Source: Gonapodya sp. JEL0774 (lineage: Eukaryota). From it: DNA of 64,000 bases. A model generated the notes under the pieces. That model was not told where the DNA came from, ran no database searches, and saw nothing but the letters and a program-made list of their open reading frames with translations. The stretch is from NCBI GenBank assembly GCA_027604505.1, contig JADIIX010000131.1:1-64000 (forward strand), given 5' to 3'. Positions 30,387 to 54,342 of the stretch are shown here, piece by piece. Position numbers and translations under genes: made by a program. Numbering within the stretch: position 1 is the first letter of the stretch; each line of letters starts with the position of its first letter.

Positions 30387-32883
30387 CTACCCCATCCCCC
30401 CTCCCACTCCCCACCACACAACTCCCACAACTCCCACCACGGTCACTCCCACACTCACAATCACCACACTCCGCTCTAACGCACTGTACCCTCCTCCTCC
30501 CTTTACCCTCCCCTTCCCCTTCCCTCCTTCCCCGCTCACGGCTCCATCTCCAACGCTGTCCCGCACCGCTTTCCGCACAAGCACCACCAGGGAAACAACA
30601 GTGGCTGGTATCATCGCCACAGTGAGGAAGCTCAATATGGGGGGGACTGTGGGCGGGTGGGACGGTACGAGTGGCGGGTCGAGTGAGGGGTCAAGCGTGG
30701 GTGCAACCGTCCGTGACGCCATCCACAAGGGGGGTTGGGGTCAGCGTGGTGCAACCGTCCGTGACGCCATCCACAAGGGGGGTTGCGGTCAGCGTGGTGC
30801 AACCGTCCGTGACGCCATCCACAAGGGGGGTTGCGGTCAGCGTGGTGCAACCATCCGTGCCGCCATCCACAACCTCTCTCCACCCTCCACCCCACCCCNN
30901 NNNNNNNNGGGTGGGTTGTTCCCCCCTCCCCGTGGGTGGTTCTTCTTTGGTTTTTTGGTTTGGGTGTGGGGGGGGGGGGGGGGGGGCGGGCGGTTGTGAG
31001 TGTGGGGTGCGGGGTGTGCACAGGTTGGTTCGTGTTGGTAATAGTGGCACGCGTGCGCACAACCATCGCTACCCCCCTCCTCCCTCCGCTACCCCCCTCC
31101 TCCCTCCGCATCCCAACACCCGAAGAACCCACCGTATCCACCCCCACCGACGTCAAACTCAATATATAATTGAGCACAGAAAAGGGGATCAGAGGGGTCA
31201 GGCGGAGGAGGAGGAGGGAGGTGAAGGCTTGGTCGCGGGGCGGGTGGGGGGTGGTACATATGTACACCGACACGATATGCGGCGGACAAGAGACACGATA
31301 AGCCACCACCCCCAGTCACACACCCCCCACCCCCCCAGCCCTCCCCCCTCCCCAACACCACCCCGTGGGCTCACCGTTCTCCGTCACGGCCCTATCCACC
31401 GCCAAAAACTGCAGATACCGCTTTTTCCGCCGGGCGCGCGCCCGCTCAGTGGGAGTGAGAGTGGGAGTGGGAGAGGCGGCGGCGGCGAGGGGGGAGGATG
31501 ATGGGGAGGGGGAGGGAGGGTAGTGTGTGCGCGTTGTGGAGGTCGTAGTGGAGGTTGAGGTGGAGGTGGTGGTGGAGGTGGAGCTAGCCGTCCCTGTCCC
31601 CGTCCCTGTGCCTGTGCCGCTGCTCATGGAGAGTATGGGCGCGTCCGTGTCCGCGTCCGTGTCCGCGTCTGTGTCCGTGTCCTCATCAGACCCGGCGTCG
31701 AACGCGGAACCGGAGCCGTCACCAGAACCAGAACTTGAACCTGAACCTGAACCGAAACCACCTTCAACGTCTCTGTCCACGTCCACGTCTGCGTCCCTTA
31801 CCGCGGTCTCGGTACTCCCAATCCCGCTGCCCGCGCTCTCCCCCTCCCCCTCCCCCGCTTCCCCTCCCGCTCTTCCAAACTCCTCCACGCCCATCACCCG
31901 GAGCACCCACCCCCTCACCACCCACCGGCCCACCACCAGGCCAACCACGCTGGCCACAGTGGTGGACACAACGTTGACAGCAACGGCGAGCCAGAGGGGG
32001 CGAAAAAAGGCGCCCGCGGCGATGTTGAGGGGGGAGATGGGGAGCACTGGGGGGTGGCGGGGGGGTAAGTTGTGTGGGTGAGAAAAGGCGGTGGTGGGGT
32101 GGGGAAGGGGAGAGCAAGAACGAAAGATGACCCACTGAATACGCTGGATGCGGTGACGATGAGCGTGAAGAGGAGGAATGACGATACGAGGTTCATGTCG
32201 GCGAAGGGGAGGGTCGTGCTGGCCGGTGGAGGAGGAGTTTGCGGGAGGGGCGGACTCGCGACCGCGTCGTCGTCGTGGTCCGCAGAAGGCGATTCAAGTT
32301 CATCATCATCACTGCCCGCGGTGGTGGTGGACGTGGTGGTGCTCGCAGTGGTGGAGGTGGTGGCTGTGGAGACCTTCCAGCTGCCTGCCCACCCCGTCCC
32401 GTCCTTGGTGTCCACCGGTGAAAGTACTCCCTTTGCCGTCCCGGCCCCGTTCCCATCGTCCATGGACCCGTGCCCTCCACCTCCACCGGCCTGCTTGGCT
32501 CCAAACCCCTTGAGACTCACCGGCACCCCACCCCGCCAGTCTCCAGTCGTCTGGTACGAGTAGAGTGCCAGGACCGACAGCACCGTCACCCCGCACAGAA
32601 CCCACACGGGGATCACAAGGGTCCGGCTCCGACGCGATCCCCATCCCCAGCCCCAGCCAAGGTTGAGCGATAGGGAGCGCCCAGGGTGGGGGAGGGGGAG
32701 GTATCGGCGGCGGATCGAGACGAAGCGGGTCAGGGGTAGGCAGAAACAGCCGGCCACAAGGTTGGGCGAGCCGGGGGAGGGGGCGAAGGAAACGCGGCGT
32801 TTTATGGGGGTAGATGGGGTGAGGGGTTTGGATGATGTGGGGATGGCAGGTCCTGGTGATGATTCGGGCATTCCTCCGTGCAT
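30387..32883 (-). CDS. TVP38/TMEM64 (SNARE-associated, VTT/DedA family) membrane protein
   Basis: Motifs LPISPLNIAAGAFF, AVDRAVTENG and LLLRLTPLIPFSVLNYILSLTSV; multiple TM segments. An assembly gap lies inside an intron. Confidence 0.8.
30694..30870. repeat. 48-bp tandem repeat, ~3.7 copies (intronic), next to the N-gap
   Basis: Unit agcgtggtgcaaccgtccgtgacgccatccacaaggggggttgcggtc. Confidence 0.9.
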
Positions 32884-48842: not shown

Positions 48843-50194
48843 ATGATCTCCGAACAAACCGTAATTGAGACCCCCACTCCAACTCCCGGCGAGGGTCCCC
48901 TTCCCATCACCCGTGCCGAAACCCAAATCATCGCGGTTCGTTCGAACTCTTTCAAATCTGCCTTGTTCCCGTTTGACCCTTCATCCTTCTAATCATTCTT
49001 GACATATTTGCGTAACACCCTCCTTTTCTCCACTGCCCGCCATCCTTTGACGTTACCCTGTAACTTCACTCGTCTCCCAGGACCATCCCGCTCCTCACGT
49101 CGAAAACCAGAGCCAAATTACGCGTGTACTCGTAATATCTCTTGACAGCTCAAGTGAGTGCTCTCTTCTCCCTCGTTACTTGCACAAAAGTGATAATGAT
49201 CGCCATCACTCTCGCCCAGTCCACTCCCAATATGCTTTTCAATGGTCAATCGAAAACTTCATCAAGCCGGAAAGCGATTTGGTTGTCCTCGTAAATGTGA
49301 GGCCAGTCGCCACGATACCTTCACCTTACGGAACATCGTGAGTATGATTTATGGACAAAGAGGAATCGTAGAAAATTGGAATTGAGTCCATTCGCGGTGG
49401 TTAGCGGGAAACCGGAATGTATTTTTGCGTTCAGATGAGCCAACTTGTTTGAGCCGGGATAGTCACCAACCACCACTCTCCACAGCTACATGGATTTCAC
49501 CGACTACCTCGTTCAAATCGAAGAACAACATCGCATCGGTACGTGTTTAATGTATTGCATTTAAACTTTTCGGCTTCGTGGCTCACGTCCCATTTCGAAC
49601 GCCACTTCAGCTTCGCATCTTCTCCTCCAGGCTTACGCCCAAAGATTGAAGAAGAAGCACATTTCCGTCAAAGCTATTGCCATGCGTGGCGATCCGCGTG
49701 ATGAAGTGGTACGCAAGGTTACAGAATTGGATGCGGATGTTTTGATTATGGGTTCTCGCGGGATGGGAGCATTAAAAAGGTGTGTTTCAGACATAAAAAA
49801 GTTATCGGAGTCCCTGCGATGGCCAGAAACTGCAATTTGGGATGTTGTAGCCGGGGCTCTTGTGGGGCTTTTCGTTTTGGTTTGTTTGTCTTGGTTTCGA
49901 AGTTAATCTCTGTGCATCCTCCCCACTGCACTCCACCATTCAGAGCATTCATTGGCAGTGTATCAGATGTACGTATCCTGATCACCCCTGATCACCCCTT
50001 GCTCATATCACTCAACCACCGTACTCTCCGATCCTCTTTCTAATCTCTTTTAGCACCTCGTCCACCACTCCCCATGCGCAGTTGTGATCGCGAAAACTCC
50101 CGCTGATTGGCAACCCACTGATCCGATTGTGATAGCTCAGCCAAGTGCTCCTGCTGCAACAGCAGGTGCACCACCCGCAACTCCATCTTCGTAA
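48843..50194 (+). CDS. Universal stress protein (Usp) family
   Basis: RVLVISLDSS..SQYAFQWSIEN and GDPRDEVVRKVTELDADVLIMGSRGMGALK|RAFIGSVSD|HLVHHSPCAVVI; many short introns. Confidence 0.92.
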
Positions 50195-50659
50195 AAGCGG
50201 CTTGGAAGATGATTTTCGTGAAGGGCGAATGGCAAGATGTTTCGTTGGCTTATTTCTCCACTTTGCTGTTGTTGTTCAGAAGGAGATTCGAATATAGAGA
50301 GTTTCGTGAAATAGTATCAGTACTGCAGAATGTATTCTGTTTTTGTGAAAACAGTGGATGATCTCCTTCGCCCAGTACATAGAATTTGCCTCTCAGCCCC
50401 TCATTAATCAAAACAGGTGCAGTCTGTTTTGTTGCCCGCCTCGTTGACGCCACAACTTCAGAGAAGTCTGGGGCAGCCATGTAAGTGTTGGTTTAGGTAC
50501 TCCAAGGAAGGCGAGGGAGCTTCATATGTGTAGTGGGTGTGATCAAGTGCCTTGTTAAAGCTCTAGATCAAACGGAATGTCCAAATGGAAACGATGAGAA
50601 TGAGTGGACGAGAATTGGAAAGGAGAGGAGCACAGAGATGGTTCCACAAGACGAGGAAG

Positions 50660-50862
50660 ACAAGGTAGGGGTAAGTTAGAGGGGAGAGGATGAGGAGGAT
50701 GCATGTGAGGATGGGGTAAGTTAGAGGGGGGAGGATGAGGAGGGTGCATGTGAGGATGGGGTAAGTTTGTGGTGGAAGTGAGAGCAGGAGAGGAGAGGAG
50801 GAGAGGAGGAGAGGAGGAGAGGAGGAGAGGAGGAGAGGAGGAGAGGAGAGGAGCAGAGGAGG
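50660..50862. repeat. ~45-bp direct repeat plus (GAGAGGAG)n purine microsatellite downstream of the SPS stop codon
   Basis: gggtaagttagaggg...gaggatgaggagg.tgcatgtgaggatg occurs twice, followed by a GGAGA/GAG run at 50785-50862. Confidence 0.85.
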
Positions 50863-50978
50863 AAAGCCAGCATAAATGTCGCCCCGCGAAAGTTCACACA
50901 AATAGGTCCTAATCCACGATATCAACCACACACGCATAATAAGACAAATGCCATTGACCGATTTGGCGACTCTTTCAT

Positions 50979-52995
50979 TCATTCGTCCCGTTCAGCCTTG
51001 TACAATTCCCACCCTTCCTCCCACCCTTCCACCTCTGAACTGCCGTCTTCGTTCCATTGGTCATATCCCCTATATTCCACTTCGACGATCTTCGCATCAT
51101 GGATGATACGCGCAGAACGAGCTCCGGGAGAATGAAGAGGGAATGAAGAGGGCGGCGAGCTTTGTGAGGAGGTTGAAGGTGAGGATGAGGCATCAACGAC
51201 ATCGCCGACTATCCATGCAGGCCACCCATCGAGACGAGTGATTTCTTCAATAAAGCTTCGGGCCCGGTCTCGAGGAATTGCAAGGAGGAGACCGCCTTCA
51301 CGGAAGGACCGGGGAGAGTGAATACTGTTGCGAGAGGAGTGTCAGCTGAGCTGTATACCACACACGCACCACTTGTCTCCGCACTCCTTCCCTCGGTCAG
51401 ATTATAGTTGACCACGGTATTCACTGCAGCCATCTTCTTGATTATTGGAAGTGTGTGGATGACGAATTCGACGGGTCGAGTTTGATTCGAGGCCAAGTTT
51501 TTTGCGTGGCCCAACAAGCCAAACCCGGTTACGTCGGTACAAGCGTGGGCACCTTTCGATGGTATACAAATATGATGTTGGGGTATGGCAGAAGGCCTGA
51601 GCGGAGATAGAGCACCACAACTCACCGTATTTGCGTGCGAGCTTGGCACCTGTCCTATTCAACCTTGCCATGGTCAAAATCTGGGTCACATACGCGGCCA
51701 CCGCCTCTTCCTCTGTGATTACTCCCGCCAACCTGTCCCATCGTTCCGGCTTTTGGTCGCGCCCTTTGAGCCATACATGCACGTTGGAGGCAACTTGCGT
51801 ACCGAGGGGCTTTGTGAGGACGAGGACGTCCCCAGGAAAGGCATTAGTGGGATAGATAATGGAGCTAGACGATTCGACGGTGGTGGCCACGCCACCGATG
51901 ATGAACCCTGCGGGTAAGAATCGGGAAGGTTTAGAACAATTGGTTCAGGAGATACGGGACATGGCGAGATCTTCCCCAGTTGCTTCTGCACTATCCCAAC
52001 TCGTCAAGACATCTTGAAAACTCACACGGCGACATGACGGTCTGTCCCCCCCTCACACTCGTCCCCGCTTGTGCACATGTGTCTCGGAAGCCCTCCATCA
52101 TGAGCCTCGCCGCGGCATCCCGGTCGGATCGAAGCATGCGAGGATCGCGGCAGATACCGAGAAGCATAAGCACGTTATCGACTTCGGGAACACCCATGGC
52201 GTAGAGGTCGGAGAGAACGTTTGCAGCGGAGATTCGGCCCTGAGAGGGAATGAAGCGGGCCGATCTTAAAGACATGATCGCAATTTCAATTTATTCAATT
52301 TATTCACCTGCCAATACGGGTCATCCACGTTCGGATAAAAGAAGTCCGTGGTCTGCACCAACTTGACTCCCTTAATCCTCGTATCAGTGACGGAGGAGTC
52401 CATGAGCAATGTTGCAACATCTCGCTTGGTCAGGGCGGTAGTCAAAGTGGGGTTGGGGGTCAATTTGGGAGCGGTGGTTGATGCGGAAACGGGATCGGGA
52501 TGCTGGTGAGCAGGAGCGGGTTGGGGATGGAACACGGAGTCGGAGCGAGCGGAGGCGGAGGCGGATTCGGAAGGATTACTGTCTTCATTGATGCCCTCGA
52601 GTAGAGCATAGAGATCGTCTTGTGGAACCTTGCAGCCTTTGTTGGTAGGAACAAGTCCACGTTGTGAATGAAGAGAGCATTACTGAGTAAGACCCAAACA
52701 TGCTCTGTACCTCATCCTTTCAGTTCCGCCCATTCAACGAGGCGGAATGTTGGTGAGAGACCGACGGAGACGGGGTTGTAGGGACCACCTCGGGTCTTGA
52801 TTTCGGGTTCAATGGGGTTCAAGGGAAGTATCGTTCACGGAAGAATTAGACACGCAAACGACCATACAAAGATATCAAATAGCGGGTTTTTCGCATAGCC
52901 AGAAGAGATGAAACATTCTGTCTCTTCCGGCCGTTCAAGTCTCGTTTGTATAGTTGCTGGGTCTGCACGCACTCGCTCACCTCATGGAGTCTCAT
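50979..52995 (-). CDS. SPS2: Selenophosphate synthetase (SPS2/SelD) with in-frame UGA at the catalytic site (probable selenocysteine)
   Basis: Exons 52995-52981 (tentative), 52795-52711, 52636-52308, 52239-52026, 51907-51626, 51552-51370 and 51295-50979 total 1425 nt, in frame. Motifs FRLVEWAELKG-TGA-GCKVPQ, LVQTTDFFYP.VDDPY.QGRI..ANVLSDLYAMG, GGQT, PGDVLVLTKPLGTQ, AHACTDVTGFGLLGH and ETSGGLL. Confidence 0.95.
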
Positions 52996-53249
52996 ATTCA
53001 ATCCCAGTAGAGATTCAGATTTGCCACACGCTAGAGAGAAAACGGTCTTGTTGATTAGAAAGCGTCGTCAAATGAGAATGGTGTTGGATGATGTGAACCC
53101 CTTGTTAACTGTAAGTGTGCACCAATCAAAATCCAATTTCATCTGGACAGCAATTATATAATGTTGACGCAACGTTTCCCACTTCGATTCTCTACATTTA
53201 CATGTCAAGCATGAATAGGTAAATCCAAGTCCGCGATGCGCATCATCAT

Positions 53250-53912
53250 CTATTCTTCCCCGGCACTGAGAAATTGAAGTTGATAAGTACGTGCGAGAGG
53301 AAGGAAGTGGAACGGAATGAAGGACGACAATAAAGGAGAGTGGAAAAAGGGTCAGTGGGGTGAACTCGAGCGCTGAGCACGCAAAGACGCCATCAGTCCA
53401 CTTCCGCTCAAATCCACAGCACTACTTTCACTCGTGTTCCCTCGCAAGCAAGAATGCACAGCTCAAAGTAGTTGTCCGTGACTTCCGCCGCCATCGATAC
53501 ATATGGTGGACCCGGGACTTGGCGACGGTTGCTCCCATGCAAGGCAAGTCCAAACGGGAAGAAAGCTACTATCGACTCACCGAATTGACCTCTCGTATTC
53601 TTTCACACCCCACGAGTAGACACCGCAGAACACCAGGATGGCGGGTCCAACGTAAGGGAGCTGGGCAACTGTACGACGGTAGACGTTGTAGATGGATTTT
53701 GAGAAAACACCGGCAAAGGGTTTTTGGCGGAAAGGCGAGATGGCATAGGCCTTGATGCCCATGTGGGGCAAGTTGCCAAGGTGACCCCTTCGAAGCCAGT
53801 TGAGGACGGGATGTGGGAACAAGGGAGGACGAGAGCGGAAGCGTGAAAGTTCAGTGAAGATTCGAGAAAAAGAGGGGGAAGCGGAAGAGCGTGCGCACCA
53901 GTGTTGACCCAT
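53250..53912 (-). CDS. QCR8: Cytochrome bc1 complex subunit 8
   Basis: MGQHW|GHLGNLPHMGIKAYAISPFRQKPFAGVFSKSIYNVYRRTVAQLPYV...WGVKEYERSIR|AGEE*. Confidence 0.9.
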
Positions 53913-54342
53913 GAGTGTCGTAGGGAATTCAAGACAAGATCAGAAAGGCTCCAAGAAGAAAACTTCGGTCAACTCGCTCACCACACACAATGCTATTACA
54001 TAAATTATACAATTGTACCTGATGACAGGTGCTTTCATATCAATTCGGTAAAGTCCACATGAATATGATGCGGCTCCAAACAATTCCGCATGGTCTCATC
54101 GAGAAAGATGCACTGTTGCCGTCGTCTCAGATTAGCTAACCCGGCATGGCTGCAAACAATGAAAGTGCCCGCAGCATCACTTTTACGGTTGCAGGAATAG
54201 TGATTACCCTCTGTGATAGCAAGAGGATTACGAGGAATGAGTTTTGTATATTGGTTTGTCCCAGCGTGGTGTAACATGTGTTTGTCGTTTCCCAATGGGT
54301 GGCCGCAGTCCGAGAAAAGCCTGGCGTCCACAATCTGACGAA

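What the first reader, a model, noticed from the sequence alone, without database searches (positions are those of the whole stretch)
52620..52795. In-frame UGA at the catalytic position of a fungal selenophosphate synthetase: probable selenoprotein
Seen: the minus strand reads ...TTC CGC CTC GTT GAA TGG GCG GAA CTG AAA GGA TGA G|gtacag...aaag|GC TGC AAG GTT CCA CAA. This translates to FRLVEWAELKG-U-GCKVPQ, with the TGA at 52714-52712 and a 74-nt intron at 52710-52637. All downstream SPS motifs are intact and in frame, so this is not a decayed gene, and no splice donor could remove the TGA. Known: SPS2/SelD enzymes carry Sec or Cys in the G-[U/C]-G-C-K loop, and animal SPS1 reads FRLTRFTELKGTGCKVPQ at the same place. 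Most fungi (Dikarya) lack Sec; its use was reported only in a few early-branching fungi such as Gonapodya (Mariotti et al. 2019). Inference: this genome recodes UGA as Sec and should hold the full machinery and further unannotated selenoproteins. ORF callers truncate this gene.
Basis: partly seen in the sequence, partly recalled or inferred. Interest (0 to 1): 0.92.

Follow-up and report, generated by a model that had tools for sequence, protein, structure and literature searches.

The report
Selenocysteine enzyme gene in aquatic fungus
An otherwise intact selenophosphate synthetase gene of the aquatic fungus Gonapodya has a UGA stop codon exactly at its active-site position, likely read as selenocysteine, a trait already reported for this genus.

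Summary
Observation confirmed. TGA 52714-52712 sits before a 74-nt GT-AG intron. The six exons give one 469-codon frame whose only internal stop is this TGA. It falls on the Sec/Cys column: of 80 prokaryotic SelD loci, 50 have TGA there, 17 have Cys and 13 were not matched. An exon is 100% identical to an NCBI protein of Gonapodya sp. JEL0774, whose model skips the UGA exon and fuses Qcr8 to the enzyme. The closest relative is G. prolifera SPS (84%), already published as a selenoprotein. So this is likely a new member of a known kind. The claim of 'full machinery' was not confirmed. No SecS named for this strain appeared among proteins of 363-1155 aa. The only G. prolifera SecS I recovered has Thr in place of the cofactor lysine kept in 147 of 150 rows. 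No canonical SECIS was found; one weak K-turn candidate lies in the 3'UTR. The start codon is unresolved. No run covers the TGA.

The parts
52712..52714 (-). In-frame TGA at the Sec/Cys position of the catalytic loop (codon 28 of the six-exon frame)
   Evidence: aligns with Cys46 of the PDB 5l16 chain and with T29 of ape SPS1 P0082
52711..52795 (-). SPS exon 1 (conserved N-terminal arm and the UGA); 5' boundary inferred from an AAG acceptor ending at 52796
   Evidence: missing from the public model P0001
52637..52710 (-). Intron 1, 74 nt, GTACAG...AAG, phase 1, one base after the UGA
   Evidence: the acceptor is also used by the P0001 model; not confirmed by RNA
52308..52636 (-). SPS exon 2 (GCK loop end, Pro/Ser-rich insert, first Asp motifs)
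52026..52239 (-). SPS exon 3
51626..51907 (-). SPS exon 4
   Evidence: 100% to P0001, 85% to P0002
51370..51552 (-). SPS exon 5
   Evidence: Pfam AIRS_C
50979..51295 (-). SPS exon 6, ending in a terminal TGA (50981-50979)
52796..52995 (-). Region that must hold the start: 16 ATG/donor/acceptor combinations keep the frame; ATG 52995 with donor GTGAGC at 52980 has the donor most like the gene's own
   Evidence: unresolved without RNA
50870..50935 (-). Weak candidate for a non-canonical SECIS: K-turn geometry (helix I, 3-nt bulge ending in U, tandem G.A/A.G, 7-bp helix II), 43 nt after the stop; no RUGA, no apical AA
   Evidence: not more stable than shuffles (z 0.59); no Rfam SECIS match

Best explanation
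This is the selenophosphate synthetase gene of a Gonapodya fungus, and its in-frame UGA is likely decoded as selenocysteine, which would make it an SPS2-type selenoenzyme. Shown: the exon structure of the frame, the position of the UGA in the catalytic loop, intact core motifs, and kinship with G. prolifera SPS. Inferred: a tRNA-Sec/EFsec/SBP2 system reads the UGA with help from a 3'UTR element that is not canonical or not yet found. Also inferred, from recalled SelD/SPS2 biochemistry: the Sec side chain holds selenide while the neighbouring Lys and the Mg-binding Asp residues transfer phosphate from ATP, giving selenophosphate, the selenium donor for making Sec. The enzyme would thus feed the pathway it needs for its own translation.
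For: The only internal stop in 469 codons lies on the Sec/Cys column. Of 80 prokaryotic SelD loci, 50 have TGA there, 17 have TGC/TGT and 13 were not matched; no other residue was allowed by the pattern. K31, D108, D126, D149 and the TDVTGFG motif are kept, and the protein differs at only 5 of 93 conserved columns. TIGR00476 SelD scores 207 bits against a cut-off of 125 (P0001). The protein is sister to G. prolifera SPS (100/99 support, 84% identity), and the Mariotti preprint states that SPS is a selenoprotein in all its Sec-using fungi, including G. prolifera. A shared UGA in two assemblies argues against a sequencing error. None of 8 other named fungal SPS models contains the loop, as expected if UGA truncates them. 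Hyaloraphidium, Paraphysoderma and Bifiguratus have canonical SecS. TGG is used 10 times for Trp and the gene ends in TGA, so UGA is not simply reassigned.
Against: No SecS named for this strain appeared among the best 120 of 772 hits (363-1155 aa only). The only G. prolifera SecS recovered has Thr at the Lys284 position and 6 of 67 conserved columns changed, against a median of 1. No canonical SECIS was found. There is no in-frame ATG in exon 1. The named fungal SPS proteins did not form one clade in my tree (3 changes), unlike the published tree. tRNA-Sec, EFsec, SBP2 and PSTK were not tested in this genome.
Confidence: 0.8

Rival explanations
1. The UGA is kept and read through, but not as Sec, because Sec synthesis in Gonapodya is decaying or rewired. 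This would resemble insect SPS1-UGA, which has UGA at this column, no SECIS and non-Sec readthrough.
For: SecS was not found for this strain. The congener's SecS differs from the canonical form in most active-site motifs checked and lacks the cofactor lysine. There is no canonical SECIS. The precedent is described in 10.1101/014928 (passages).
Against: The six bases after the UGA are GGC-UGC, not the GGG-UG[C/U] conserved in SPS1-UGA, and only weak hairpins follow (-7.3 kcal/mol over 50 nt). G. prolifera is reported with tRNA-Sec, Sec machinery, five selenoprotein families and some SECIS elements. The SecS search could not see models under 363 aa or unannotated genes, and the Lys/Thr difference rests on one annotated protein that I could not check in DNA.
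Confidence: 0.12
2. The TGA is an assembly error or a recent nonsense mutation in a Cys-type SPS, or the gene is a young pseudogene.
For: No reads cover the codon. TGA is one base from TGC/TGT. The start codon is not obvious.
Against: There is no other lesion in 469 codons. The chance of hitting this codon is about 1 in 469. The congener's SPS is reported with Sec and its public model is likewise truncated. The same paper saw no Sec-to-Cys conversions in fungi.
Confidence: 0.05
3. The real product skips the UGA, either as the annotated Qcr8-SPS fusion or as a short protein starting at a downstream Met.
For: The NCBI model P0001 joins Qcr8 residues 1-52 to exon 2, and P0002 starts at the downstream Met.
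Against: The skipped exon matches the N-terminal arm of SPS proteins residue by residue, which implies it is translated. The fusion cuts Qcr8 inside an open frame that Pfam matches further (UcrQ 3-69 of 78 in the genomic frame against 12-63 in P0001) and needs an intron of about 970 nt where the gene's own are 68-118 nt.
Confidence: 0.03

Closest known systems
Gonapodya prolifera Sec-SPS (P0002; Mariotti et al., 10.1101/314781)
   Same: Orthologue: 84% identity, sister in the tree with 100/99 support. Reported as a selenoprotein. Its public model also lacks the loop.
   Different: A different species of the genus. Its N-terminus and 3'UTR could not be fetched, so the start and any SECIS could not be compared.
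Eukaryotic SPS2 / prokaryotic SelD (TIGR00476, Pfam AIRS + AIRS_C)
   Same: Sec/Cys column, loop lysine and Asp motifs are kept. Human SEPHS1 structures match at E 4e-96.
   Different: It carries a Pro/Ser-rich insert after the loop and another near the C-terminus. No canonical SECIS was found.
Metazoan SPS1 (Thr/Arg/Gly at the loop) and insect SPS1-UGA
   Same: Very similar N-terminal arm. SPS1-UGA also has UGA without a SECIS.
   Different: The window protein lies outside the metazoan clade and lacks the GGG-UGY readthrough hexamer.

Membership tests
Selenophosphate synthetase (SelD/SPS) | AIRS + AIRS_C fold with a SelD family score above cut-off | tested here: met
   P0001: TIGR00476 207 bits against a cut-off of 125; below the cut-offs of two prokaryote-specific models. 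PF00586 and PF02769.
Selenophosphate synthetase (SelD/SPS) | Loop lysine and metal-binding aspartates (roles recalled, not from a call) | tested here: met
   K31, D108, D126 and D149 align with K32, D69, D87 and D110 of P0082; TDVTGFG at 309.
Eukaryotic selenoprotein (SPS2-Sec) | In-frame UGA at the Sec/Cys column with coding conservation on both sides | tested here: met
Eukaryotic selenoprotein (SPS2-Sec) | [quoted passage not shown] | tested here: inconclusive
   No Rfam SECIS match. No convincing RUGA/AA/GA element between the stop and the convergent gene. One non-canonical K-turn candidate. Only 5 of 16 published fungal selenoprotein genes had a detectable SECIS.
Eukaryotic selenoprotein (SPS2-Sec) | SecS with its PLP lysine in the same genome | tested here: inconclusive
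   None named for this strain among 363-1155 aa proteins; the congener's recovered copy has Thr at that site.
Eukaryotic selenoprotein (SPS2-Sec) | tRNA-Sec, EFsec, SBP2 and PSTK in the same genome | not testable with these tools
   No whole genome is held. Within the window: no tRNA and no SecS- or SelB-like match.
Eukaryotic selenoprotein (SPS2-Sec) | Sec shown in the protein | not testable with these tools
   Needs 75Se labelling or mass spectrometry.
Insect-type SPS1-UGA (non-Sec readthrough) | GGG-UG[C/U] directly after the UGA and a strong hairpin next to it | tested here: not met
   GGC-UGC follows, with weak hairpins only (definition).
Insect-type SPS1-UGA (non-Sec readthrough) | Membership of the metazoan SPS1 lineage | tested here: not met
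   Groups with Gonapodya and chytrid SPS, outside the metazoan clade.

The most novel reading that the evidence does not exclude
Gonapodya decodes the UGA of SPS by a non-standard route. Either it uses a SECIS reduced to a plain K-turn (50935-50870), a first example of the cryptic fungal SECIS that Mariotti et al. predicted, or it keeps UGA selenoprotein genes while its Sec synthase has lost the cofactor lysine (G. prolifera) or is missing (this strain), which would mean Sec synthesis is rewired or caught in mid-loss.
Probability: 0.15. Interest if true: 0.75.

Novelty: new member of a known kind. Interest (0 to 1): 0.32.

Why it matters
As a Sec-SPS in a second Gonapodya it mostly confirms published work and corrects a public gene model that fuses Qcr8 to SPS. 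Its practical value is comparative. The authors who found fungal Sec wrote that most fungal SECIS elements are undetected and that more genomes would allow comparative prediction; a congener's 3'UTR is what that needs. The odd SecS in the genus is a cheap, checkable lead on how the Sec trait is lost or altered in fungi.

Tried and rejected
Whole-genome search: no genome held. Sequencing runs: no RNA holder listed. The one run X1 gave a single 246-nt contig at 51715-51960 that does not cover the TGA, so it says nothing about the codon or splicing. Metagenome scan for related loci: 3 weak matches (E about 5e-4, 28 residues), treated as chance and not used. First prokaryotic genome scan: nothing. 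Rfam: no SECIS at E up to 10 in 49500-54000 or 50850-50985. A SECIS-like fold at 49995-49950 was rejected because it lies antisense to exons and an intron of the convergent Usp gene, whose stop is at 50192-50194. A candidate at 50404 with AUGA and AA was rejected for a poor helix. Global reassignment of UGA was rejected. The search for a paper on SelD catalytic residues returned nothing relevant, so those roles are recalled. Earlier findings: three look-ups, nothing shown. The final Nature Microbiology version and the PNAS supplement could not be read.

Full report
Observation. Six exons (52795-52711, 52636-52308, 52239-52026, 51907-51626, 51552-51370, 51295-50979) give 1410 nt with stops only at codon 28 and at the end; introns are 68-118 nt, all GT-AG, and 3 of 5 end in AAG. 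A single nonsense change would land on this codon about once in 469. No RNA data test the splicing: no RNA holder was listed, and the one run laid does not cover the site.

Identity. Exon 4 is 100% identical to P0001, which NCBI names a hypothetical protein of Gonapodya sp. JEL0774, and 85% identical to G. prolifera selenide water dikinase P0002. Gonapodya belongs to the Monoblepharidomycetes. P0001 is a faulty model: residues 1-52 are the upstream Qcr8 gene (53762-53607) and residues 53-492 are exons 2-6, so the UGA exon is skipped. P0002 starts at the Met downstream of the loop. In a 42-row tree the window protein is sister to P0002 (100/99; 84% over 313 columns), next to chytrid SPS proteins with moderate support (81/80) and outside the metazoan clade. 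The nine named fungal rows did not form one clade (3 changes; 0% of bootstrap trees with one). The rows were a hand-picked 37 of the 223 SPS proteins fetched, plus four prokaryotic loci.

The UGA column. Exon 1 read with U aligns its last residue with Cys46 of PDB 5l16 (E 0.25, a short query). In the full alignment it matches T29 of ape SPS1 P0082, with K32, D69, D87 and D110 kept and 5 of 93 conserved columns changed. Among 120 proteins, 50 contain the loop, with T 32, R 12, W 3, G 2 and M 1 at this column (one W is the chimeric P0001). Among 80 prokaryotic loci, a pattern that allowed only Cys or stop found the loop in 67: TGA 50, TGT 9, TGC 8; 13 were not matched. None of 8 other named fungal SPS models contains the loop. 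UGA is not globally reassigned: the gene uses TGG ten times and ends in TGA.

Prior art. I read the whole text of the preprint 10.1101/314781, without figures or supplements. It reports Sec machinery in five early-branching fungi, SPS as a selenoprotein in all of them including G. prolifera, a SECIS in only 5 of 16 genes, and no Sec-to-Cys conversions. PMC9457484 (passages and section 7) reports Sec in 11 early-diverging fungal genomes; the list is in a figure and a supplement that I could not see, so this strain may already be counted. The final Nature Microbiology paper is not held. Searches (listings) showed no paper describing this gene or a fungal SECIS variant; the library lacks most subscription papers.

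Machinery. No whole genome is held; the window has no tRNA and no SecS- or SelB-like match. I reached eukaryotic SecS through an archaeal one and named 10 of the 150 representatives, which gave G. prolifera P0353 and SecS of Paraphysoderma, Syncephalis and Ramicandelaber. A search with P0353 residues 1-480 listed the best 120 of 772 hits among 7980 scored candidates of 363-1155 aa. It found Hyaloraphidium (47%), Paraphysoderma and Bifiguratus, but nothing named for this strain and nothing above 52%. Shorter or unannotated genes could not appear, so this is a gap, not proof of absence. P0353 has Thr290 where 147 of 150 rows have Lys (2 gaps). This position aligns with the human QSLDKNF motif; the number 284 for that lysine is recalled, and a passage of PMC10164584 names the Lys284-PLP linkage. 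P0353 differs at 6 of 67 conserved columns against a median of 1 among 232 near-full rows; five rows differ more and two tie. It departs from the canonical form in most of seven motifs that Hyaloraphidium keeps. This is one annotated protein of a relative, unchecked in DNA, and a second copy may exist.

SECIS. The 3'UTR must lie between 50978 and the convergent Usp gene, which stops at 50192-50194. Rfam gave no SECIS. A pattern scan found two cores there. The one at 50935-50870 has K-turn geometry: 8 of 9 pairs in helix I, a 3-nt bulge ending in U, tandem G.A/A.G, U.C, and a 7-bp helix II. It is the only one of 495 loose cores in the window to meet strict criteria, met by 2 of 2000 shuffles; a looser rule was met by 32 of 2000. 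I set those criteria after seeing the candidate, so the numbers flatter it. Against it: UUGA instead of RUGA, no apical AA, three G-U pairs in helix II, and folding no better than shuffles (z 0.59). PMC1874613 (abstract and first part of the discussion) shows that SBP2 can bind K-turns with a protruding U, but it prefers a large internal loop and a purine-pyrimidine pair at position 4, which this element lacks, and it cites near loss of Sec insertion when the loop is closed. I give the element about 10-15%.

Start codon. An in-frame TGA at 52837-52835 precedes exon 1 and no in-frame ATG follows it. Sixteen ATG/donor/acceptor combinations keep the frame. ATG 52995 with donor GTGAGC and the AAG acceptor at 52796 has the most typical donor; a lone ATG at 52865 gives a typical 67-nt intron but a poor donor. 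This is unresolved.

Mechanism and rivals. Most likely (0.8) the UGA is read as Sec and the enzyme makes selenophosphate; decoding and catalysis are inferred, the chemistry from recall. Non-Sec readthrough or a decaying pathway (0.12) has a precedent in insect SPS1-UGA (passages of 10.1101/014928), but the hexamer after the UGA is GGC-UGC and nearby hairpins are weak. Error or pseudogene (0.05) and exon skipping (0.03) fit poorly.

Verdict. Real, well supported, and a new member of a known kind: interest 0.32. The leads worth following are the missing or altered SecS in the genus and the 3'UTR comparison, together about 0.15 likely to reveal something new.

Noticed in passing
P0353 (Gonapodya prolifera SecS model, 1130 aa): Thr290 stands where 147 of 150 SecS rows have the PLP lysine, other active-site motifs are altered, and the model is fused to an RRM-containing tail. 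It may be a dead copy, an error or a sign of a changed pathway.
   Followed up: partly
window 53250-53912 (-): Qcr8 (UcrQ) gene directly upstream of SPS: first intron 53898-53788 ends in AAG; its 3' end is either an unspliced stop near 53577 or a short last exon from 53265. The public model P0001 fuses it to SPS.
   Followed up: partly
P0006, P0010, P0042, P0121, P0123, P0205, P0208: SPS models from Endogone, Paraphysoderma, Quaeritorhiza, Jimgerdemannia, Polychytrium, Synchytrium microbalum and Furculomyces all lack the catalytic loop, as if cut at a UGA; none of these is among the five species of the preprint I read.
   Followed up: partly
P0287, P0307, P0334, P0377, P0387: SecS with the cofactor lysine in Paraphysoderma, Ramicandelaber, Syncephalis, Hyaloraphidium and Bifiguratus, which suggests further Sec-using fungi; the Bifiguratus model is fused to a phosphatase.
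   Followed up: partly
window 48843-50194 (+): Universal stress protein gene convergent with SPS; the two 3'UTRs share about 790 nt. The 5' coordinate is read by eye.
   Followed up: partly
window 50668-50863: A 45-nt tandem repeat (2.2 copies, 96% match) and a purine/pyrimidine microsatellite just downstream of the SPS 3'UTR candidate.
   Followed up: no
window 51296-53898: AAG 3' splice sites are unusually common here: 3 of 5 SPS introns and the first Qcr8 intron.
   Followed up: no
L004 and L084 (handle G001): A Helarchaeota genome has TGA at the same SPS column, and SelB and SecS as adjacent genes.
   Followed up: partly
window 16333-62600: Other genes by Pfam among 73 ORFs scanned: LRR, VTT domain, class I/II aminotransferase, PIG-U, GATA+BET, MDM31/32, Band 7, cNMP-binding; none belongs to the Sec machinery. 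Ten N lie at 30899-30908.
   Followed up: no
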